64,000 nucleotides of DNA from Lachnospiraceae bacterium (GCA_017521195.1 JAFXGP010000088.1:11203-75202), one strand, 5' to 3'; counted from the stretch's first letter, positions 9,907 through 18,703 are shown. Made by a program: numbers and translations. The notes: generated by a model not told the origin, from the sequence alone.

Positions 9907-10476
9907 TTATTTTTTACTAACCTTATATTTTTCGATAACATCACATAATTGCTTTTTTCTTTCACTTCTATCACCGGAAATCTTAATGTAATTTATTTGA
10001 AACTGTTCCAAAAGAGATAGAATCAAAGCATCAATATCTCTCCTATACTTTTCATCTTCTGGTCTAACACCATCATATTGAAGAGCAAATTCTATTGGAA
10101 AGTAAACATACAAATCATATCTATCTTTCTCCAATAACCATATATTTTTCATCATTTCAATAAAATACTCAGAAATATATGGCCTTGGTAATTTACTATT
10201 CACCATAGCATATGCTACCGGATCCAGCAATGTACGATCACTTATAAAGATATCACATTCTTGCATCAACTTGTTTTCTTCATTTAATTGATCATTTATA
10301 TAATGAATATATGACTCTACTGTGGCATCCATATTTAAAGGATATCCCTTTTCTATAATTTTTCTTGCAACCTCTGTTACACTGTGAATTTTTAATTTGT
10401 CTGCAAGTATTTCCTCTATATCTTTTAGCAATGTAGTCTTTCCTGTACAATGTGTTCCTGTAAATGCTATTTTCAC
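9907..10476 (-). CDS. P-loop NTPase / nucleoside-kinase-like protein (AAA_28 / NadR-RNK-like)
   Basis: 189 aa. Walker A GTHCTGKTTL, and a Walker-B-like FISDRTLLD. GTG start overlaps the upstream stop (GTGA, 10473..10476). Confidence 0.55.
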   Translation of the reverse strand: MKIAFTGTHCTGKTTLLKDIEEILADKLKIHSVTEVARKIIEKGYPLNMDATVESYIHYINDQLNEENKLMQECDIFISDRTLLDPVAYAMVNSKLPRPYISEYFIEMMKNIWLLEKDRYDLYVYFPIEFALQYDGVRPEDEKYRRDIDALILSLLEQFQINYIKISGDRSERKKQLCDVIEKYKVSKK

Positions 10477-11396
10477 CCCTCTGCACCATCCTTTTTTAAA
10501 TATAAATCTTTCATCATTCTTGCACCTCTCTCCTGAGAATCTCGCGCTTCACAAATTATTACCGGTTGCACCCCTTTATATTTTATTGCTTCGACAAAGT
10601 GCTCTGCCAAAGGATAATATCTATTCTCTTTAACTTCACTAAATAATTCTAATTGTTGATTCTCAATTCTATCTTCAAATGCTCGATGTCTCTTCTCACC
10701 ATTACGATCGATTTCCACCGGATACATATGAAAATGAGTCTCTTCTAAATATTGCCTTCCCAATTCTTTCTCTATGAGATTAAGTATTTCTATAATACTT
10801 TCCGATGTCGTTAATTTACCATTCTCAAATCCGTGCACATGGGCCACATCAATACAAGGACGAGTATACTCCACACGAGAACATATATATATAATATCGT
10901 TCACACTACCTATCTGGCTATGCTTACCTGCTGTTTCAGGATATAAATATATGCCCTTTGGAATTTTATTTTTAATACTATTTAATCCATCTACTATTCT
11001 TTTTAATGCATCCATCCTATCGGCTTCACTCTTCCCCGGAAAATGCCCTGGATGAAAGACAATTCTCTTAGAACCAATTCTAACTGCAAGTTCAAAACAT
11101 TGTAATATCCTTTCCTTAGATCTCTGAACTATTGCATCATCAGCACTTGCCAATGTAATAAAATAAGGTGCATGTAAAGATATTCCTATTTTATATTTCT
11201 CAGCCAATTCCCTATACAAAACTGCCTGTTCTTCCTTCATCTTTACACCATAAGTATTTTGAAGCTCTATCCAATCCAAATTTAATTCATTCAACCACTC
11301 AAATATATTTTCTCTTTTCTTTTTATACCTGCTTTCGAAAAAAGCCGGCGGAAAACCCGCAACACCAAACCTTATTTCTTTTTGTTCTTTTATCAT
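10473..11396 (-). CDS. endonuclease IV-like / xylose-isomerase-like TIM-barrel metalloenzyme
   Basis: 307 aa. Ordered metal-ligand-like motifs LHAPYFI, VFHPGHF, YPETAGK, IDVAHVHG, THFHMYP and ICEARD resemble the Nfo pattern. ATGA overlap with the upstream gene (11393..11396). Confidence 0.6.
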   Translation of the reverse strand: MIKEQKEIRFGVAGFPPAFFESRYKKKRENIFEWLNELNLDWIELQNTYGVKMKEEQAVLYRELAEKYKIGISLHAPYFITLASADDAIVQRSKERILQCFELAVRIGSKRIVFHPGHFPGKSEADRMDALKRIVDGLNSIKNKIPKGIYLYPETAGKHSQIGSVNDIIYICSRVEYTRPCIDVAHVHGFENGKLTTSESIIEILNLIEKELGRQYLEETHFHMYPVEIDRNGEKRHRAFEDRIENQQLELFSEVKENRYYPLAEHFVEAIKYKGVQPVIICEARDSQERGARMMKDLYLKKDGAEG

Positions 11397-12673
11397 GCTC
11401 GCTTTTTCTCCTTTTGTACGATGCCTTTCAACTCTTCACTAATTCTATTGCCGGCACAATATCCAGACCACATTGATTGCACGAACCCTCTGGAAATTCC
11501 CACTGCATCTCCTATTACATAAATATTTTTACAATTCGTTTCAAAATGTTCATCTGTACTGACAATCGGATTGAGTCTATCTACCGAAGGAAGCCAAACA
11601 GGATATTTATCTAGGTTTTCCTCCAGTATCTGTTCCTTTTGCATCATACGTATAAAATGTATAATTGCTTCAAAAACCTCAACAAATAGGTTTGTTTCTT
11701 TTATTAGACTATCACCATTTTTCACAAAATCTTTTAAGGACCAATCTAAATTTATATATTCTTTCAGATAAGAACAATATAGTGCAGCTCCCTCAAAACC
11801 ATATATATAAGGACTTCTAGCTAATATTCCCAAATTAACCTGTTTTGTAATAACATTTTCGAAATGACCATCATAATATTTCATTCCATTTAAGTTTACA
11901 ATAGTCTTACTTCCACCAGAACACACACAAAATGTTCTCAAACCAATATCACCAATTTGAGCCTTAAGTTTAATGTCTTTTCCTATCTCTCTAAATATTT
12001 CTGTTCTATTATAGTCTATACCAAATCGTATTCCCAAATCGGGATTTTGCAATCTGACATTTTTTTGTTTTCCGAACCATTTCATAATTCGCTCAGAAGA
12101 AAGCCTTCCACTAGCAAATATTATATAATCAACTAACTCTTCGATAGTTTCTGTATTATTTTTTTTACACTGTATTATATACCCATCGTTTACTTTTTTA
12201 TAATCGATGAACTCGCACGATGTAATAATATCTACACCATACTTTCTTACTTCCGCCAACAAACTTGAAACAAAGCAATTCATTTCCGTTTTTGTTAAAA
12301 GTATAGATTCATAATTCTTTTGAAAAAAATTATCTGTTTTTGATAGTATCATAGATATACCACCACTCTCAGGGAACTTTTTATTTTGTATAAAAAATTT
12401 CAAATATCTTTCACAAAAAACTGCAAACTCATCTGCATAAAATCCGGTTCGTTTCCATACTCCCGCACTAGCTGGGGGAAAACATAATTTCCCTCCATAA
12501 ATAGTTCCTGCCCCTCCTTCTCCACAGACCATACCTGACTCATCTTCTACCACTCTTTCTGCATAATGTTTACCCTTTTCAATTATAATAATCTGTGCTT
12601 CAAAGTTTTGGGCTAATTGATAAGCCGCTGTAAGACCACTAAGACCTGCACCAACAATTAATATTTTTTTCAT
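11393..12673 (-). CDS. FAD/NAD(P)-binding oxidoreductase (uncharacterised FAD-dependent dehydrogenase type)
   Basis: 426 aa. N-terminal dinucleotide fold KILIVGAGLSGLTAAYQLA...IIIEKG and C-terminal IYVIGDAVGISRG. SD AGGAGAG upstream. Confidence 0.7.
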   Translation of the reverse strand: MKKILIVGAGLSGLTAAYQLAQNFEAQIIIIEKGKHYAERVVEDESGMVCGEGGAGTIYGGKLCFPPASAGVWKRTGFYADEFAVFCERYLKFFIQNKKFPESGGISMILSKTDNFFQKNYESILLTKTEMNCFVSSLLAEVRKYGVDIITSCEFIDYKKVNDGYIIQCKKNNTETIEELVDYIIFASGRLSSERIMKWFGKQKNVRLQNPDLGIRFGIDYNRTEIFREIGKDIKLKAQIGDIGLRTFCVCSGGSKTIVNLNGMKYYDGHFENVITKQVNLGILARSPYIYGFEGAALYCSYLKEYINLDWSLKDFVKNGDSLIKETNLFVEVFEAIIHFIRMMQKEQILEENLDKYPVWLPSVDRLNPIVSTDEHFETNCKNIYVIGDAVGISRGFVQSMWSGYCAGNRISEELKGIVQKEKKRA

Positions 12674-12838
12674 TTTTCTCTCCTAAATCACAACATCTAT
12701 ATACTTTTTTGACATTTTCTTACCTACTAAGCTTTTCTCCTATCCGTCTTACCAATTCCTGTATAAACTCATCTGACTTTGTCAATTGCTCCACTATTTT
12801 ATCTTCTTTTATCTCTGCCAAAATAGTATCTTTTAATC

Positions 12839-13621
12839 CTAACAATCCACATTCCGCAGGTATTGTTCCTGAGAACGAAAATACCTAATATCTTTAATTC
12901 CGTTAGTATCACAATATGACTTTTGATACTTCTTTTTATTCATTTTCTTTAAATTTAATATAGTTTCATTGCGTACTTCTTCATCACCCAAACATGAAAC
13001 ATAAGAAAATTCAATAGTTGCTATTTTATCACCATGCTTTATATCAATTACTCTACTACTTAGATTATATATAAAGCAAAACAACTTCCCTCTATAATAA
13101 GGTTCAACCTGAGTTGCCTGCTGACTAATTATTCCTTTATGTACACTTCCTAATTTTAAATCAAATCTTCCTACAACAATTTTTTTATGTTTTTCTACCA
13201 CACTATAAGTATCCACAGTTTCTCTCAATTGTATAAGTGCAGCACCATACGGGGGTATACTTAATGTTCTTATCTTTACATCATTCTGTCTTTTGTATTG
13301 ATTGCTAGGTTGATGATTTTCATTCAACTTTTCCATTTCATCATCTTCCCCTATATAAAAAAGATTCCATTTCTTCGCCTTACCATCACCTTCTCCACTA
13401 TAGACAAAATGGCCTTCGCCCATCGTCAAATCAAATGTAGTTGGTTTCAAGCGATCTGTTGGATTTTCATCAGGCGAATAATCAACTAATCCGTAACGAA
13501 CTATCTCTTCTGAAGTTAATATCCCTGCCATTTTTTGAAAGCAGCTACTATTATGCTCACAATTCAAATCCATTTTAGAATTATCGCCTATGTCTATACT
13601 TTTTTCGCTTCCCATTACCAC
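12839..13621 (-). CDS. dCTP deaminase / dUTPase-fold protein (divergent; candidate defence effector)
   Basis: 260 aa. The core follows the Dcd/dUTPase pattern: ILTSEEIVRYGL, TTFDLTMGEG, IPPYGAALIQLRETV, VVGRFDLKLGS, QVEPYYRGKLFCFIYN, HGDKIATIEF. SD AGGAGAAG overlaps the stop codon of the KAP gene. The track start is a GTG (13621), with an ATG two codons in (13615). Confidence 0.7.
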   Translation of the reverse strand: MVMGSEKSIDIGDNSKMDLNCEHNSSCFQKMAGILTSEEIVRYGLVDYSPDENPTDRLKPTTFDLTMGEGHFVYSGEGDGKAKKWNLFYIGEDDEMEKLNENHQPSNQYKRQNDVKIRTLSIPPYGAALIQLRETVDTYSVVEKHKKIVVGRFDLKLGSVHKGIISQQATQVEPYYRGKLFCFIYNLSSRVIDIKHGDKIATIEFSYVSCLGDEEVRNETILNLKKMNKKKYQKSYCDTNGIKDIRYFRSQEQYLRNVDC

Positions 13622-13629
13622 AACTTCTC

Positions 13630-14976
13630 CTAATTCATAATTTCAGAAAAATCACAATATCGTTTTACAATATCTAATTCCTTATATCTATCTATATTTC
13701 CATCTGTTCGTGGATAATATGGCATGTCATCTGCATTATATACATTAGCAAAATACCAAAAGACATCGCCATATATAGTACTCTTTAACTTTCCCTTTTC
13801 GTTTATACCTAACTTAACATAACCCTCAGCTTCTCTTTCCAACATCCTTAAATACTCAAACTTTTTAATTCCTAATTCTTTCTCTAACTCAGAATATTTT
13901 TCACGATTAATCAAGGCCAACTTATTCATATCTCCAAAGTTCCACATTTTTAACACTTCATACAGGATTTCAAACATTAAAACCGATTCATCTACCGGCT
14001 CTTTGCATACAATAGAATGCACAACATCTATCTTTTCAATTAATTTCTCTTGTATTCTGACATCAACTCCTGTAAACAGATCCGTAACAACTTTTTCTAT
14101 CTTTTCTTGATTTTTTAATTTCCCATTAACTTGAAATTTTTTAAAATAACGTTCATATTTATGGATAAGATTATTATTAATTTTTCCTTTATCCAATATC
14201 AGTGAAAAATTAATAAATTTTTTTAAATACTTCTCAACACTCATCGAATTCTTACTTTGATTTCCTCCAAACATCTCTTCCACAGAATGTTCCAACTGCG
14301 TTCTATCAATAGCAAGAATCACAACGATATTCTCTAACCCTGAAAAAATATGATGAAGTCGTTCCAATACCTTAATTGTATACTGCGGAATACATCGATC
14401 CAATTCATCAACAACAAAAACTATTGTTCTTTCATCAGCAATTTCTCGTAATTTATCCTGCACCTGTTCTATAGTCTTATTAAAATTAAACATTTTATCA
14501 AAAGCATAACTTTCTTTTTCATTTTTATCTTTGTTATCTTTTATATCACTTACAACATTTACTATATTTACTCCTATTTTATTTTCTATATATAATCCTG
14601 CAATTTCTTGTAATTTATCCTGAGCCAATTGCCAACCAGCTTTTACTGTATCTACCATCTCCAAATTAGTAAGTGCTTCATCTTTCCGAATGGAGCTTAA
14701 CATAGCCGAGATAATTGCCACAGCTGGTTCTTCATAATAGTCATATTTCCAACAATTATAATGAAACACAAAATATTTATCATTCGCAGTCTTTTCGCTC
14801 TGTATAATATTTAATTTCTTTTCTAATTGCTCAACAACAAATGTTTTTCCGATTCCCCATCCACCTTCAATGGCAAAACAACATCCCTGTTTGTTTTCTG
14901 ATAATTGTTCTACTACTTTAATCACATTATCTACAAACTTATCACGATCTAATAAATCAACTTTCTCTCTTTCCAT
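13630..14976 (-). CDS. KAP-family P-loop NTPase (soluble, no transmembrane insert)
   Basis: 448 aa. Walker A IEGGWGIGKTF, family-typical NCWKYDYYEEP, and Walker B TIVFVVDELDRC. No hydrophobic stretch of 18 aa or more lies between Walker A and Walker B. Confidence 0.8.
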   Translation of the reverse strand: MEREKVDLLDRDKFVDNVIKVVEQLSENKQGCCFAIEGGWGIGKTFVVEQLEKKLNIIQSEKTANDKYFVFHYNCWKYDYYEEPAVAIISAMLSSIRKDEALTNLEMVDTVKAGWQLAQDKLQEIAGLYIENKIGVNIVNVVSDIKDNKDKNEKESYAFDKMFNFNKTIEQVQDKLREIADERTIVFVVDELDRCIPQYTIKVLERLHHIFSGLENIVVILAIDRTQLEHSVEEMFGGNQSKNSMSVEKYLKKFINFSLILDKGKINNNLIHKYERYFKKFQVNGKLKNQEKIEKVVTDLFTGVDVRIQEKLIEKIDVVHSIVCKEPVDESVLMFEILYEVLKMWNFGDMNKLALINREKYSELEKELGIKKFEYLRMLEREAEGYVKLGINEKGKLKSTIYGDVFWYFANVYNADDMPYYPRTDGNIDRYKELDIVKRYCDFSEIMN

Positions 14977-15090
14977 ACTTGTCCACGTTACCTTTCTTTT
15001 TCATTAATAAAGATCTCTACTCTATGACAACACATTATTCAAAATGCTATACACGACCCCATCGCATATAGCACCTTCTTTTACTCTTAT

Positions 15091-15408
15091 TTAATTAGAA
15101 TCATCCTTCTCCTCACAAAACTCATTGATCAGTTTCATAATTTTCCCTAATCTCTTCATTTGTGCCGGACTCATGTTATCAAATTTGCCATTCCGATTTT
15201 TACCTTCTCCGGTCAACAAATAATCACAACTTGAAGATAGGGCTCTGCTAATCTTCAATAATGTCTCGGCTGAAATTCCTTTTTTACCCATTTCCACTTC
15301 ATACAAAAACTTGGTTGAAATCTCTGCTTTCTCCGCCAGTTCCTCTCTGGTCATGTTTCTTTCTTTTCTTAATTCTTGTATTCTTATCCCCATTTTGTCA
15401 TTCGTCAT
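15091..15408 (-). CDS. XRE-family helix-turn-helix transcriptional regulator
   Basis: 105 aa. Sequence IRIQELRKERNMTREELAEKAEISTKFLYEVEMGKKGISAETLLKISRAL is a canonical HTH_XRE. SD AAGGGGA 9 nt upstream. Confidence 0.85.
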   Translation of the reverse strand: MTNDKMGIRIQELRKERNMTREELAEKAEISTKFLYEVEMGKKGISAETLLKISRALSSSCDYLLTGEGKNRNGKFDNMSPAQMKRLGKIMKLINEFCEEKDDSN

Positions 15409-15695
15409 ACCACTATCCCCTTTATCCTAATTTTGACATTTTTTAACACTTTGTACAAAGGTCAATAGTTCCATTTGATATTACCTATAATTCACGTTTG
15501 ATATTTTTGAACGTAATATTCCCTTCTACATTTTCAGTGCAAACACATAAATGTTCTTTTATTTTTTCTTTTCATTATCGCTTATTTCCCCGGAATATGT
15601 TGTCATTTATTACTTTATGATGTTTTGTTATAGTTCTAATAGAAAAATAGAAGATTATATCTAAAAAACGGAAGATTCTTTTGATTTGCGCAAAC

Positions 15696-16816: not shown

Positions 16817-18703
16817 TTATCTCACCTCTATAATATAGCCATATGCATTTTCAAATACTCTTTTTTGATTATCTACATATTCCGGATTACAATATACATC
16901 CTGTTTATCACGTCTTACCAATGCGTAATCAACTGCTCTATTCTCTACCATGGAATATTCTATCTCCAAGTCCCATGTCCACGTAGGAATCTGATTGGTA
17001 ATCGCATAGAAGTCGTCAAATCTGGGCCAATCACATACCCAGGCTACCGAGTAACCTGCTTTCGTCAGCTTGGCTGCTTCATTGCATAATTCCTGTTCTA
17101 AAGGACTCATCTTTATCTCATTATAGCGGTCGGTAACAGCATCCAGATTCGTATGTATAAGATTAAAATAAGCCGCAGCCCGATCCTCCAGGCACATAGA
17201 CTCATCTCTTTCTCTCAATTGCTCATCCACATGAATTAAGCTCCCTGCAAACAAAATCGTACACATCAGACCATATGCAACTAAAAATTGCTGCTGGGAT
17301 TTATCTATATCTGCAATCACCCTCACCATAATCGCAAAGCACAAAAGCCATAATAAATTATAATTCTTATTATAATAATATAAACTTATAAATCCCATTA
17401 TATATAATAAAAACTGTGCCCCTATGTATCCCAAGGTTAAAACAAATACCACTATATATTCGTCTAATTTACGTTTGCATAATGTATTCCATAAATAAAC
17501 CAATACAAAAGGAATCAATAATACAAAATTAGAATATAAATCGTAATAAGAAACTCCCGGAATTGCCAATCCAGATATGATGGAACCATCCCATCCTGTT
17601 GTTGCCACTTCCGGCTGTGTTACATCTTCTACACTATCCCTTTCTGTACTTACCGCCTCTGCTACAACTTCGTTTTCTACACTTGCAACTTCAGACACGA
17701 CCTTAGCTTCCAATTCCGGTTCCGGCGCCGACACACTGGTAAATATTCCAAAATATACATAGACAATACACAATACTCCTGCCAAAAACAAAGAAAATGC
17801 CGTATATAGGATTTTTTCTTTCCAAAATCCTTTTCTCTCGCCCCAGATGTATAGGAACTGTGCTCCGAACAAGACCGGCGCAAAGTATACATAACAAACA
17901 CACAATGCTGTATTGGCAAAAAAAGCCGCTATCATTAACTGCAGTGAACTAACATTTCCGCTTCTGTATTCTTTGAACAAATATAAAATCAGCGTTACCA
18001 ACAGAATGGAGGTCCCCCAATAGGTAAATCCATATAACATATTATTTAAAGGGTATCCCAACATATATATAATGGTTAAAATAAGACCTATTATCTTCTT
18101 AGGCAAACTTCTTAATTCTTCTCCAATCAACGCCCAGAATGTAACACCACTTAAAGCAAATAAAAAAGTCTGAAATGCCAAAAATACTTTATAATAATAC
18201 AAAGTTCCCAAGAATGGTGTAATAAACATCAGGTTAAGTCCATCTCTCAATTTTTGGAAATACATGGAACCAATTGTCTGTGTTCTTACTACGTCTTCTG
18301 CCCACATCAGATGTATGGAACCATCACCGGATTTAAAGCGAAATACCTCAAACCATCCGCTATATCTGGAATAAGAAATCAATAATGATACTGCTGCCAC
18401 TACCACAACAGCTGCCATATCCTTATAATCCCAATAATATTTCTGTTTTTCTTTTCCACCCTTTATATAAAGCATTAAAAGTATCACAGTGGCAATAATA
18501 TCACAGATAGAAACACTAATTAAATTGATTGGCACATGAAACAAATTAAGTAATCCTGCACTTGTAGCTTCATAACACCACACTAATAAAAAGCTGAAGA
18601 CAAAATAAGACACACCATTTACTCTTTTTTCATTTTTCTTATAACTAAATAGTGATATTAGTAATACAATAAAACTTATAAAATATAAAATCGAACCTAC
18701 CAT
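16817..18703 (-). CDS. large polytopic membrane protein, function unknown (GT-C-like glycosyltransferase or polymerase candidate)
   Basis: 628 aa. About 9-10 TM helices are followed by an acidic low-complexity linker (APEPELEAKVVSEVASVENEVVAEAVSTERDSVEDVTQPEVATT). About 4 more TM helices and a ~130-aa soluble C-terminal domain follow. I recognise no family motif with confidence. Confidence 0.4.
   Translation of the reverse strand: MVGSILYFISFIVLLISLFSYKKNEKRVNGVSYFVFSFLLVWCYEATSAGLLNLFHVPINLISVSICDIIATVILLMLYIKGGKEKQKYYWDYKDMAAVVVVAAVSLLISYSRYSGWFEVFRFKSGDGSIHLMWAEDVVRTQTIGSMYFQKLRDGLNLMFITPFLGTLYYYKVFLAFQTFLFALSGVTFWALIGEELRSLPKKIIGLILTIIYMLGYPLNNMLYGFTYWGTSILLVTLILYLFKEYRSGNVSSLQLMIAAFFANTALCVCYVYFAPVLFGAQFLYIWGERKGFWKEKILYTAFSLFLAGVLCIVYVYFGIFTSVSAPEPELEAKVVSEVASVENEVVAEAVSTERDSVEDVTQPEVATTGWDGSIISGLAIPGVSYYDLYSNFVLLIPFVLVYLWNTLCKRKLDEYIVVFVLTLGYIGAQFLLYIMGFISLYYYNKNYNLLWLLCFAIMVRVIADIDKSQQQFLVAYGLMCTILFAGSLIHVDEQLRERDESMCLEDRAAAYFNLIHTNLDAVTDRYNEIKMSPLEQELCNEAAKLTKAGYSVAWVCDWPRFDDFYAITNQIPTWTWDLEIEYSMVENRAVDYALVRRDKQDVYCNPEYVDNQKRVFENAYGYIIEVR

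What the first reader, a model, noticed from the sequence alone, without database searches (positions are those of the whole stretch)
12720..15460. XRE regulator + soluble KAP-family NTPase + dCTP-deaminase/dUTPase-fold protein: candidate undescribed nucleotide-targeting defence operon
Three co-directional minus-strand genes unrelated to glycan synthesis sit in the gap between two polysaccharide loci.
(i) 15091..15408 encodes a 105-aa XRE-type HTH.
(ii) 13630..14976 encodes a 448-aa KAP-family P-loop NTPase (GGWGIGKT, NCWKYDYYEEP, VFVVDELDRC).
(iii) 12839..13621 encodes a 260-aa protein whose core follows the dCTP deaminase/dUTPase barrel pattern.
Genes ii and iii are 8 bp apart, and the SD of iii (AGGAGAAG) overlaps the stop codon of ii. 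This makes a translationally coupled NTPase-plus-effector pair preceded by a small regulator, which is the usual architecture of anti-phage systems.
There are two precedents. Single-gene defensive dCTP deaminases deplete dCTP and carry a fused kinase-like P-loop domain. A membrane-inserted KAP NTPase (Tmn) has been reported as a stand-alone defence gene. To my knowledge, a separate soluble KAP NTPase paired with a dCTP-deaminase-fold protein is not a named or validated system.
Hypothesis: the KAP NTPase senses infection and licenses the dUTPase-fold partner to attack the dCTP/dUTP pool or a nucleotide signal, giving abortive infection.
Basis: partly seen in the sequence, partly recalled or inferred. 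Interest (0 to 1): 0.9.

Follow-up and report, generated by a model that had tools for sequence, protein, structure and literature searches.

The report
KAP-gated dUTPase-fold/flavoprotein mobile defence cassette
The three genes are real, but the unit is a five-gene operon: a rare, mobile, undescribed cassette (dUTPase-fold protein, flavoprotein, endonuclease-IV-like enzyme, nucleotide kinase) that one lineage has joined to an already catalogued KAP NTPase, and it is probably an anti-phage system.

Summary
The three ORFs exist as described: an XRE HTH, a soluble KAP NTPase and a dUTPase/dCTP-deaminase-fold protein (DCDL). The interpretation needs revising in four ways.

1. The KAP belongs to PADLOC's PDC-S20 family (E 8e-158), an untested single-gene candidate.
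2. DCDL's constant partner is not KAP. It is a COG2509-type flavoprotein, usually followed by an endonuclease-IV-like TIM barrel and an AAA_28 kinase.
3. Of 34 non-redundant DCDL loci, 28 lack KAP, and all but one of those have a membrane-anchored DCDL. The other 6, including the window, form one clade where DCDL lost its membrane tail and KAP sits 14 bp upstream, in at least five genomic contexts. KAP is therefore an integral part, but only of this derived variant. The XRE is not conserved.
4. The window's 260-aa ORF is a frameshifted copy. Five other assemblies of the same organism have an intact 298-aa gene.

The deaminase residues are absent. The cassette is rare, absent from the phage and plasmid collections searched, and sits in a P2-like prophage hotspot and beside RM genes, GmrSD, integrases and recombinases. 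I found no description of it. A defence role is likely, and the mechanism is inferred. QatABCD is the closest validated analogue.

The parts
15091..15408 (-). XRE/HTH_3 regulator, 105 aa. It is a local neighbour and not a conserved part of the system.
   Evidence: PF01381 E 8e-13. It is present in all assemblies of this species. It is absent next to KAP in L041, L043, L050 and L045. tblastn found no XRE relative in any of the 37 DCDL loci first collected.
15045..15073 (.). Inverted repeat (12-nt arms, 5-nt spacer) between the XRE stop and the KAP start. It could be an operator or a hairpin; it was not tested.
13630..14976 (-). Soluble KAP-family P-loop NTPase, 448 aa, of the PADLOC PDC-S20 family. 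Proposed switch or sensor of the type-B architecture.
   Evidence: PF07693 E 6e-29. PDLC04957 E 8e-158 over the full length. Walker A and B invariant. No TM helix. The 60-75% identical KAPs all lie 14 bp upstream of a DCDL gene.
12720..13621 (-). dUTPase/dCTP-deaminase-fold protein (DCDL). The intact gene would be 298 aa, running from the ATG at 13615 to the stop at 12720. In this window it is read as a 260-aa ORF (12839-13621) because of a frameshift.
   Evidence: AF2 pLDDT 86.5. Foldseek E 3e-10 to dUTPase/Dcd structures. TIGR02274 E 1e-4 and PF22769 below threshold. The family has 160 or more clusters at 90% identity and 66 representatives at E<=1e-30.
12861..12862 (-). Site of the 1-nt deletion (a missing T) that frameshifts DCDL and removes its C-terminal helix.
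   Evidence: restoring the T gives 300 aa, 72.5% identical end to end to P0002; the window differs from five other assemblies by 0 mismatches and 1 gap over 5.7 kb.
11393..12673 (-). COG2509/VP0956-type FAD-dependent oxidoreductase, 426 aa. It is the invariant partner of DCDL.
   Evidence: Pfam Pyr_redox_2/DAO. AF2 pLDDT 89.3. Foldseek top hit 3NLC, E 2e-17, TMq 0.72. A flavoprotein of this type is next to or near DCDL in every locus with enough flanking DNA.
10473..11396 (-). Endonuclease-IV-like TIM-barrel metallo-phosphodiesterase, 307 aa. Its start overlaps the flavoprotein stop by 4 bp.
   Evidence: PF01261 E 1e-26. TIGR00587 nfo E 8e-19, below the cut-off. The best PDB sequence hits are Endo IV enzymes (2x7v E 1e-11). 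Invariant H75 H115 E154 D183 H186 H221/H223 E234 H237 E283 cover all nine Endo IV metal-ligand positions.
9907..10476 (-). AAA_28 P-loop protein, 189 aa, resembling a nucleoside or nucleotide kinase. It overlaps the previous gene by 4 bp.
   Evidence: PF13521 E 4e-26. phrog_2107 'thymidylate kinase' E 2e-31. Walker A is invariant.

Best explanation
Window 9907-14976 (minus strand) is one operon. It is the 'type B' form of a rare, horizontally mobile, undescribed cassette.

Shown:
- The invariant core is a dUTPase/dCTP-deaminase-fold protein (DCDL) plus a COG2509-type flavoprotein.
- Most loci add an endonuclease-IV-type trinuclear-metal phosphodiesterase and an AAA_28 nucleotide-kinase-like protein. 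One variant has a NUDIX hydrolase in their place.
- In the ancestral 'type A' form (about 90% of the family) DCDL carries a C-terminal linker plus a transmembrane helix, and there is no KAP.
- In a single derived clade that includes the window, DCDL is cut back to just before the membrane helix. A soluble KAP NTPase of the PDC-S20 family is fixed 14 bp upstream.

Inferred:
- The cassette is an anti-phage or inter-element conflict system.
- KAP in type B, or the membrane tail in type A, controls when the enzymatic core acts.

Most speculative:
- DCDL is not a deaminase. It holds a pyrimidine deoxynucleotide that the flavoprotein chemically alters by oxidation or reduction.
- The kinase feeds or re-phosphorylates that nucleotide.
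- The Endo IV-type enzyme, or NUDIX in the variant, handles the altered nucleotide in DNA or in the pool. It either converts the lesions into breaks in replicating phage DNA or limits self-damage.
- This would be a repair-type nuclease co-opted for immunity, as shown for QatD in QatABCD.

The XRE is a local regulator at most. The frameshift in this window's DCDL is specific to this assembly.
For: Unit composition:
- tblastn of the six window proteins against 37 loci fetched through DCDL found KAP and XRE in 0 of 37. FADox, TIM and AAA_28 follow in conserved order wherever downstream DNA exists (gene calls).
- The apparent exception L016 has a divergent flavoprotein of the same type (PF21688).

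Two architectures:
- All six KAP-linked loci have a 47-50-aa non-hydrophobic tail. All KAP-less cassette loci have 95-256-aa tails with a hydrophobic helix.
- The prediction that other short DCDLs would have KAP upstream was tested on P0019 and P0022, and it held.
- The nine tail-less proteins form one clade nested within the membrane-tailed forms.
- The KAP-linked unit sits in different surroundings: a glycan locus with XRE (window); an integrase and SIR2-STAND (L041); IS110 and NikA/MobC (L043); an Eco57I-type MTase, HATPase and HNH (L050); PIN plus a UvrD-like helicase (L045).

Mobile or defence setting of type A:
- A P2-like prophage, between the primase and ogr/portal/terminase. This is the gpA-gpQ defence hotspot of Rousset et al. 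2022 (PMC9122126).
- Next to GmrSD, and next to an Eco57I-type MTase and an integrase.
- Neighbours in 11 further loci include serine recombinases, TnpV, Mob_Pre, a portal, type II MTases, DinG, Tmn and a YobI ATPase.

Rarity and patchiness:
- 6 of 185,579 species genomes, spread across Clostridia, Desulfobacterota, Adiutrix and Kiritimatiellales.
- 66 representative clusters at E<=1e-30.

Enzymology:
- dUTPase/Dcd fold.
- Endo IV metal ligands invariant.
- Kinase Walker A invariant.
- NUDIX replaces TIM and AAA_28 in L021.

KAP in defence:
- PDC-S20 is a PADLOC candidate.
- KAP NTPases from gut Firmicutes protect against phage in a Walker-B-dependent way (PMC12632615).
- QatABCD combines a KAP NTPase with a TIM-barrel nuclease that has AP-endonuclease activity (PMC13434339).
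Against: - There is no experimental evidence of any kind for this cassette.
- The defence-island association is qualitative. No enrichment statistic was computed.
- In the window itself, and in L001 and L041, the cassette lies among glycosyltransferase genes. The window has no mobile-element gene nearby.
- No homologue was found in IMG/VR, GenBank phages or PLSDB plasmids.
- The substrate of every enzyme is unknown. The flavoprotein's nearest structure (3NLC) has no known function.
- DCDL lacks the Ser/Arg phosphate-binding residues of Dcd according to a weak alignment. Even dNTP binding is therefore an assumption.
- Some loci lack the Endo IV-like gene (L011, L021), so it cannot be the universal effector.
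- KAP could in principle be an adjacent independent defence gene.
- Promoter and terminator scans were no better than chance and do not define the transcription unit.
Confidence: 0.5

Rival explanations
1. A three-gene XRE-KAP-DCDL abortive-infection system in which KAP licenses a dUTPase-fold effector to deaminate or hydrolyse dCTP/dUTP. The downstream genes are unrelated.
For: KAP and DCDL are 8-14 bp apart, with the Shine-Dalgarno overlapping the stop. They are adjacent in six loci. DCDL has the Dcd/dUTPase fold.
Against: - In every one of those loci with enough sequence, the flavoprotein, Endo IV-like and AAA_28 genes follow.
- DCDL occurs with those genes and without KAP in 28 of 34 loci.
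- The XRE is not conserved.
- The deaminase Glu138, Ser111 and Arg115 equivalents are absent.
- DCDL has no PADLOC dCTP-deaminase hit.
Confidence: 0.08
2. Two independent neighbours. A stand-alone PDC-S20 KAP defence gene happens to sit next to a separate four-gene cassette, as genes often do in defence islands, with no functional coupling.
For: - PADLOC lists PDC-S20 as a single-gene candidate.
- KAPs 55% identical pair with a different, unrelated 272-aa downstream gene.
- The cassette works, or at least persists, without KAP in most lineages.
Against: - KAP presence and loss of the DCDL membrane tail coincide in every locus examined.
- The tail-less clade arose once.
- The 14-bp spacing is fixed and the five genes co-diverge across at least five unrelated contexts.
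- Only the KAP sub-clade at 60% identity or more is ever found next to DCDL.
Confidence: 0.15
3. A metabolic or housekeeping cassette. It would salvage or sanitise pyrimidine nucleotides, repair DNA, or modify a nucleotide-sugar for the surrounding glycan locus, and would not be a conflict system.
For: - It is embedded in glycan loci in the window, L001 and L041.
- Its components (dUTPase fold, kinase, NUDIX, Endo IV, and nearby HAD hydrolases in L003 and L021) are classic nucleotide house-cleaning and repair enzymes.
Against: - It is extremely rare and phylogenetically patchy.
- It lies in a P2-like prophage hotspot and beside RM genes, GmrSD, integrases and recombinases in other taxa.
- One clade has recruited a KAP NTPase of a defence-candidate family.
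- The TIM barrel is closest to Endo IV and not to sugar isomerases.
- None of the four proteins reaches any NCBIfam equivalog threshold.
Confidence: 0.12
4. A function that benefits the mobile element and not the host. Examples are synthesis of a modified pyrimidine for DNA hypermodification or anti-restriction, or repair of element DNA after host attack.
For: - The combination of a dUTPase/Dcd fold, a flavoenzyme and a 'thymidylate kinase'-like protein resembles a dCTP-to-dTDP-type pathway. The kinase matches a phage family.
- One variant has a DNA methylase and a second DCD gene (L009).
- The cassette occurs in a prophage.
Against: - There were no hits in 50,697 phage genomes or in IMG/VR.
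- Most copies are chromosomal, with no replication module of their own.
- A membrane-anchored DCDL and a KAP switch are hard to reconcile with a biosynthetic route.
Confidence: 0.1

Closest known systems
QatABCD anti-phage system (Gao et al. 2020; QatD biochemistry in PMC13434339)
   Same: An operon led by a KAP-family NTPase, followed by a protein with a nucleotide-metabolism fold and a metal-dependent TIM-barrel DNA-repair-type nuclease. QatD has AP-endonuclease activity. The window's KAP hits QatA models at E 1.6e-19 (NCBIfam) and 3.7e-17 (PADLOC).
   Different: - There are no QatB, QatC (QueC-like) or QatD (TatD) homologues.
- The nuclease here is of the Endo IV/AP_endonuc_2 type, not TatD.
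- A flavoprotein and a kinase are added.
- The KAP scores 70 bits against a QatA cut-off of 600.
- Here KAP is dispensable in most of the family.
PADLOC PDC-S20 (untested single-gene phage defence candidate; Payne et al., bioRxiv 10.1101/2024.01.29.577857)
   Same: The window's KAP matches the PDC-S20 model over its full length at E 8e-158.
   Different: - PDC-S20 is defined as a single gene. Here it is the first gene of a five-gene operon.
- In typical PDC-S20 loci (L046-49) the downstream gene is an unrelated 272-aa protein.
KAP P-loop NTPase defence proteins of gut Firmicutes (EF_KAP and relatives; RADS preprint PMC12632615), PifA, Tmn
   Same: A KAP or YobI-type NTPase acts as the ATP-dependent controlling module of an anti-phage function. 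These proteins come from Enterococcus, Lachnospira and Faecalibacterium-type hosts.
   Different: Those are single proteins with transmembrane helices and a fused C-terminal effector region. Here the KAP is soluble and the presumed effector enzymes are separate genes.
dCTP deaminase / dUTPase superfamily (E. coli Dcd, Dcd-Dut of M. jannaschii and M. tuberculosis, Thermococcus dUTPase)
   Same: They share the beta-barrel fold, the YDL(R/T)LG strand and the (D/E)P-x-x-x-G...N motif.
   Different: - The motif-III Asp is an invariant Glu.
- The deaminase Glu aligns with Phe. Ser111 and Arg115 are not conserved.
- DCDL has an extra N-terminal Cys-containing segment and a C-terminal linker with or without a membrane helix.
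- It falls below the Pfam and TIGRFAM thresholds.
Defensive dCTP deaminase / AvcD (nucleotide-depletion defence)
   Same: The concept only: a defence that acts on pyrimidine deoxynucleotides.
   Different: Those enzymes are zinc-dependent CMP/dCMP-type deaminases fused to a kinase-like domain (own knowledge of the family; PMC10511110 describes AvcD as a deoxycytidylate deaminase). The fold is different, and DCDL has no PADLOC hit.

Membership tests
KAP family P-loop NTPase (PF07693) | Pfam model above its gathering score; Walker A GxxGxGKT and Walker B hhhhDExD present | tested here: met
   101.6 bits against a cut-off of 20. G38-T45 and D190-C195 are invariant in 16 relatives.
PADLOC PDC-S20 | Full-length match to a PDC-S20 HMM | tested here: met
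   PDLC04957 E 8.2e-158, residues 4-447 against 3-445 of 446.
PADLOC PDC-S20 | Single-gene system | tested here: not met
   Here and in five other non-redundant loci it is 14 bp upstream of a four-gene cassette. In L046-49 a 272-aa gene follows at 10 bp.
QatABCD | QatA equivalog score, with qatB, qatC (QueC-like) and qatD (TatD) adjacent | tested here: not met
   NF041923 scores 70 bits against a cut-off of 600. None of the neighbouring proteins hits a Qat model in PADLOC.
Tmn / YobI-type membrane NTPase | Transmembrane helices inserted in the NTPase; match to the Tmn model | tested here: not met
   There is no Tmn hit among the KAP's PADLOC matches. Max 19-residue hydropathy is 1.16.
dCTP deaminase / dUTPase superfamily | Characteristic beta-barrel fold | tested here: met
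   Foldseek E 2.7e-10 to 4e-10 and target TM 0.67-0.77 to 9ln0, 8y1w and 4xjc, from a model with pLDDT 86.5.
dCTP deaminase (TIGR02274 / PF22769) | Curated score threshold | tested here: not met
   TIGR02274 scores 22.1 against 92.8. PF22769 scores 14.6 against 27. A few family members do carry a precomputed PF22769 hit.
dCTP deaminase (catalysis) | Catalytic Glu138 with Ser111 and Arg115 (E. coli numbering) | tested here: not met
   hhalign maps Glu138 to the near-invariant Phe183, Ser111 to Leu157, and Arg115 to a variable position. The motif alignment to 8y1w agrees.
Trimeric dUTPase (catalysis) | Motif III Asp, and the C-terminal glycine-rich motif V | tested here: inconclusive
   The Asp position is an invariant Glu173. 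No motif V is recognisable, but the Dcd-like archaeal dUTPases that are the best hits lack it too (own knowledge).
Defensive dCTP deaminase (Tal et al.) / AvcD | Zinc-dependent cytidine/dCMP deaminase domain with an N-terminal kinase-like domain | tested here: not met
   DCDL has no PADLOC match at E<=0.1, and the fold is dUTPase-like.
Endonuclease IV (Nfo) | Nine ligands of the trinuclear metal site | tested here: met
   H75, H115, E154, D183, H186, H221/H223, E234, H237 and E283 are invariant in 18 family members. They were mapped through the alignment to T. maritima Endo IV 2x7v. Two positions are shifted or substituted (Asp229 to Glu234; the spacing to His237 differs).
Endonuclease IV (Nfo) | NCBIfam nfo thresholds | tested here: not met
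   TIGR00587 scores 67.9 against 129.65, and the PRK01060 equivalogs score 34-47 against 244-376. It is a related family, not an Nfo orthologue.
COG2509 / VP0956-type flavoprotein | Fold, and the N-terminal GxGxxG dinucleotide-binding motif | tested here: met
   Foldseek to 3NLC gives E 2e-17 and TMq 0.72. G8 and G10 are invariant.
Anti-phage defence system (generic) | Protection against phage on expression | not testable with these tools
   There is only contextual evidence.

The most novel reading that the evidence does not exclude
The cassette would be a new class of immune system built on flavin chemistry.
- A membrane-tethered or KAP-gated dUTPase-fold protein presents a pyrimidine deoxynucleotide to a COG2509 flavoprotein.
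- The flavoprotein converts it into an aberrant, oxidised or reduced nucleotide that poisons phage DNA synthesis.
- Endo IV-type and NUDIX enzymes, the classic handlers of oxidised pyrimidines, either turn the incorporated lesions into breaks or shield the host.

This would also give the first function for the COG2509/VP0956 flavoprotein family. It would show a membrane anchor and a KAP NTPase acting as interchangeable control modules.
Probability: 0.15. Interest if true: 0.85.

Novelty: new variant of a known kind. Interest (0 to 1): 0.62.

Why it matters
If the cassette is a defence system, it adds an enzyme combination not seen in any described system: a dUTPase fold, a flavoprotein, an Endo IV-type nuclease and a nucleotide kinase.

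It would also do three further things:
- Give a first biological context for a flavoprotein family whose structure has been known since 2010 with no function assigned.
- Extend the emerging theme, shown for QatD and the DNA glycosylases, that DNA-repair enzymes are co-opted for immunity.
- Offer a natural experiment in how control modules are exchanged, since a membrane tail and a soluble KAP NTPase replace each other on the same enzymatic core.

In practical terms, PADLOC's 'single-gene' PDC-S20 is probably the NTPase half of multi-gene systems with variable partners. That should change how it is cloned and tested.

Tried and rejected
- I tested whether the 272-aa gene downstream of typical PDC-S20 KAPs is a distant DCDL. 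It is not (hhalign probability 0.4%).
- The 260-aa DCDL is not a natural short form. It is a frameshifted copy.
- L016 and L018 do not lack the flavoprotein. They carry a divergent one.
- The 'noTM' proteins P0083 and P0090 are not exceptions to the tail/KAP rule. They are cut inside the hydrophobic helix at contig ends.
- The KAP C-terminal region diverges most between partner classes, but it is also the fastest-evolving region within each class. The test is inconclusive.
- Promoter and terminator scans were no better than shuffled sequence.
- The window has no tRNA and no Rfam family.
- PHROGs had nothing for DCDL or the TIM barrel.
- There were no DCDL relatives in IMG/VR, GenBank phages or PLSDB. 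For KAP there was one distant hit in IMG/VR and one in a plasmid.
- Ten literature searches found no description of this gene combination. DefensePredictor mentions an unvalidated 'dUTPase' system but never KAP, FAD or AP endonuclease.
- DefenseFinder could not be run.

Full report
**1. Checking the observation**

All three minus-strand ORFs exist at the stated coordinates.
- The 105-aa product is an HTH_3/XRE protein (E 8e-13).
- The 448-aa product is a KAP_NTPase (PF07693, E 6e-29). Its Walker A and B motifs are invariant among relatives. It has no hydrophobic helix, so it is soluble.
- The 260-aa product scores below threshold on the DCD, dUTPase and dCTP-deaminase sequence models. An AlphaFold2 model built on 49 homologues (pLDDT 86.5) nevertheless matches Thermococcus dUTPase and several dCTP deaminases and Dcd-Dut enzymes at Foldseek E about 3e-10, with target TM 0.67-0.77. 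The fold call is correct.
- The AGGAGAAG Shine-Dalgarno does overlap the KAP stop codon.

Two corrections are needed.
- The 260-aa ORF is a frameshifted copy. The missing C-terminal 40-odd residues can be read in another frame down to 12720. Restoring a single T near 12862 gives a 300-aa protein that aligns end to end with its closest relative (72.5% identity). Five independent assemblies of the same organism are identical to the window over 5.7 kb except for that one base. They encode an intact 298-aa protein starting at the ATG 14 bp after the KAP stop.
- The non-glycan insert has six co-directional genes, not three. A 426-aa FAD oxidoreductase, a 307-aa AP_endonuc_2 TIM barrel and a 189-aa AAA_28 protein follow DCDL, with 4-bp overlaps between them.

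**2. What the conserved unit is**

The KAP protein matches PADLOC's PDC-S20 model over its full length at E 8e-158. PDC systems are 145 untested candidates predicted by 'guilt by embedding' (bioRxiv 10.1101/2024.01.29.577857).

The DCD-like protein (DCDL) belongs to a small family. It has 160 clusters at 90% identity. In a library of 1.84 billion proteins it has 66 representative clusters at E<=1e-30, followed by a sharp score drop.

I fetched 37 loci through DCDL from genomes and metagenomes and searched them with all six window proteins.
- KAP and XRE were found in none.
- The flavoprotein, TIM barrel and AAA_28 followed DCDL in the same order wherever downstream DNA existed.

However, the closest KAP relatives (60-75% identity) sat on contigs of the same lengths as the closest DCDL relatives. 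Inspecting those contigs showed KAP 14 bp upstream of DCDL, followed by the same trio, in quite different surroundings:
- an integrase and a SIR2-STAND gene (L041);
- an IS110 element and NikA/MobC (L043);
- an Eco57I-type methyltransferase, an HATPase and an HNH gene (L050);
- a PIN protein and a UvrD-like helicase (L045);
- the window's glycan locus.

**3. Two architectures**

Most DCDLs are 340-450 aa, with a C-terminal linker and a hydrophobic helix. The KAP-linked ones are 286-303 aa and stop just before that helix.

I predicted that two further short DCDLs (P0019, P0022) would have KAP upstream, and both did. Across 34 non-redundant loci:
- All six KAP-linked loci have a 47-50-aa non-hydrophobic tail.
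- All KAP-less cassette loci have a 95-256-aa tail with a hydrophobic helix.
- The one exception is an atypical Adiutrix locus (L009).

The nine tail-less proteins form a single clade nested inside the membrane-tailed forms. Two apparent counter-examples are merely cut within the helix at contig ends.

KAP is therefore an integral part of a derived 'type B' architecture. It arose once, through loss of the membrane tail and gain of KAP. It is not part of the ancestral 'type A' cassette.

More distant PDC-S20 KAPs (55% identity; more than 149 contigs for one cluster) are followed at 10 bp by an unrelated 272-aa protein. This KAP family therefore appears to work with interchangeable downstream partners. 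The XRE is adjacent to KAP only in this species.

**4. The parts**

- The TIM barrel's best sequence matches among solved structures are all endonuclease IV enzymes (2x7v, E 1e-11). Eighteen family members keep invariant His, Glu or Asp residues at all nine positions of Endo IV's trinuclear metal site. It falls below the NCBIfam nfo thresholds. It is therefore a related phosphodiesterase family and not an Nfo orthologue.
- AAA_28 has an invariant Walker A motif. It matches a phage family annotated as thymidylate kinase (E 2e-31).
- The flavoprotein model (pLDDT 89.3) best matches 3NLC/VP0956, a structural-genomics protein with no known function (E 2e-17).
- DCDL keeps the YDL...G strand and a (D/E)P...G...N motif. 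The motif-III Asp is an invariant Glu. The position of Dcd's deaminase Glu138 is a near-invariant Phe, and Ser111 and Arg115 are not conserved. DCDL is therefore unlikely to be a deaminase.

Variant loci sharpen what counts as the core:
- L011 has only DCDL plus the flavoprotein.
- L021 has DCDL, the flavoprotein and a NUDIX hydrolase 8 bp downstream, in place of the TIM barrel and AAA_28.
- The L024 cluster and L036 lack AAA_28.
- L009 combines two DCD-domain genes with a DNA methylase and a flavoprotein.

The invariant pair is therefore DCDL plus the flavoprotein. All the accessories are enzymes that handle nucleotides or damaged DNA.

**5. Context**

- In Desulfoluna butyratoxydans the cassette lies in a P2-like prophage, between the primase and ogr/portal/terminase. 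This corresponds to the gpA-gpQ defence hotspot described by Rousset et al. (PMC9122126).
- In Desulfovibrio desulfuricans it is next to GmrSD.
- In a Clostridia MAG it is next to an Eco57I-type methyltransferase and an integrase.
- Eighty-eight neighbour ORFs from 11 further loci include serine recombinases, TnpV, Mob_Pre, a portal, type II methyltransferases, DinG, Tmn and a YobI ATPase.
- Only 6 of 185,579 species genomes carry the cassette, and they are scattered over four phyla-level groups.
- No copy was found in IMG/VR, GenBank phages or PLSDB.
- In the window, L001 and L041 it sits among glycosyltransferase genes. I read these as variable regions that accept insertions, but this keeps a glycan-related role formally open.

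**6. Mechanism**

Shown:
- the gene content;
- the two architectures;
- the folds;
- the conserved metal and P-loop sites;
- the mobile, defence-like neighbourhoods.

Inferred: this is an anti-phage or inter-element conflict system in which KAP (type B) or the membrane tail (type A) controls the enzymatic core.

Speculative:
- The dUTPase-fold protein holds a pyrimidine deoxynucleotide that the flavoprotein alters.
- The kinase supplies or re-phosphorylates it.
- The Endo IV-type enzyme, or NUDIX, deals with the altered nucleotide in DNA or in the pool. Endo IV and MutT-type NUDIX enzymes are the classical handlers of oxidised pyrimidines and oxidised dNTPs (established knowledge of those families). 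It would either cut lesion-bearing phage DNA or protect the host.

**7. Comparison with known systems**

The closest validated analogue is QatABCD. It has a KAP NTPase (QatA), a QueC-like protein, and a TatD TIM-barrel nuclease whose AP-endonuclease and exonuclease activities have been measured (PMC13434339). The window's system is not Qat:
- its KAP scores 70 bits against a QatA cut-off of 600;
- it has no QatB, QatC or QatD;
- its nuclease belongs to a different family.

KAP NTPases from gut Firmicutes have been shown to protect against phage in a Walker-B-dependent way (PMC12632615). Those are membrane proteins with fused effector regions.

Defensive dCTP deaminases have a different fold, and DCDL does not hit their models.

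No PADLOC v2, NCBIfam (June 2026) or PHROG model, and none of ten full-text literature searches, describes the four-gene cassette or the five-gene form.

**8. Verdict**

- There is a KAP-linked, probably nucleotide-directed defence operon here.
- Its KAP is already a catalogued candidate.
- The XRE is incidental.
- The proposed deaminase or pool-attack mechanism is unlikely.
- The window's own DCDL copy is frameshifted.

I rate it as a new variant of a known kind (an NTPase-gated, nucleotide- or DNA-directed defence operon on mobile DNA), with interest 0.62. The enzymology is unprecedented among described systems, and the swap between tail and KAP is a clean evolutionary signal. Function rests entirely on context.

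Noticed in passing
L046:3031-5205 (also L047-L049): A typical PDC-S20 KAP (55% identical, seen on more than 149 contigs) is followed 10 bp downstream by a 272-aa protein with no Pfam hit that is unrelated to DCDL. A PBECR4 gene and an integrase lie nearby. PADLOC's 'single-gene' PDC-S20 may really be a two-gene system with exchangeable partners.
   Followed up: partly
L021:1377-4214: A variant cassette: membrane-tailed DCDL, then the flavoprotein, then a 150-aa NUDIX hydrolase (PF00293, E 1e-18) 8 bp downstream, in place of the Endo IV-like and AAA_28 genes. A HAD-type hydrolase lies upstream on the other strand.
   Followed up: partly
L009:10001-15849 (Candidatus Adiutrix MAG): An atypical locus: a short DCDL, then an N6/N4 DNA methylase, then a second DCD-domain protein (PF22769, E 6e-10), with a flavoprotein on the opposite strand. 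It has no Endo IV-like gene, no AAA_28 and no KAP.
   Followed up: partly
L043:1701-6494 and L050:523-5316: A conserved four-gene block lies directly upstream of the KAP-linked cassette in two different elements. It comprises an Eco57I/MmeI-type N6 methyltransferase (471 aa), an HATPase_c_3 protein (712 aa), a 199-aa protein and an HNH protein (213 aa). It may be an RM-like defence system in its own right.
   Followed up: no
L045:3373-6875: A PIN_8 protein (461 aa) and a UvrD_C_2 helicase-like protein (700 aa) form a tight pair just upstream of KAP-DCDL. Two HTH_3 genes lie further upstream, one of them 52% identical to the window's XRE.
   Followed up: no
window 1-64000: Almost every ORF of at least 180 aa is on the minus strand (50 of 52), forming one long run of glycan-synthesis genes. 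G+C steps from about 0.28-0.34 (1-24 kb, which includes the cassette) to about 0.36-0.41 (24-64 kb), suggesting that the first 24 kb is a separately acquired or variable glycan region. There is no tRNA and no Rfam match.
   Followed up: no
window 16817-18703 (-): A 628-aa polytopic membrane protein inside the glycan locus has no Pfam family on record in the precomputed annotation of the identical gene (L053:3970-5856).
   Followed up: no
window 15045-15073: An inverted repeat (TGCTATACACGA / TCGCATATAGCA; 12-nt arms, 5-nt spacer) lies between the XRE stop and the KAP start. It could be an operator or an attenuator hairpin.
   Followed up: no
L001:6284-7780 and L002:1144-2640: In a gut-metagenome relative, an IS66-family transposase sits exactly where KAP sits in the window, directly upstream of a membrane-tailed DCDL. 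A Peptidase_C14 (caspase-like) gene lies downstream among glycosyltransferases.
   Followed up: no
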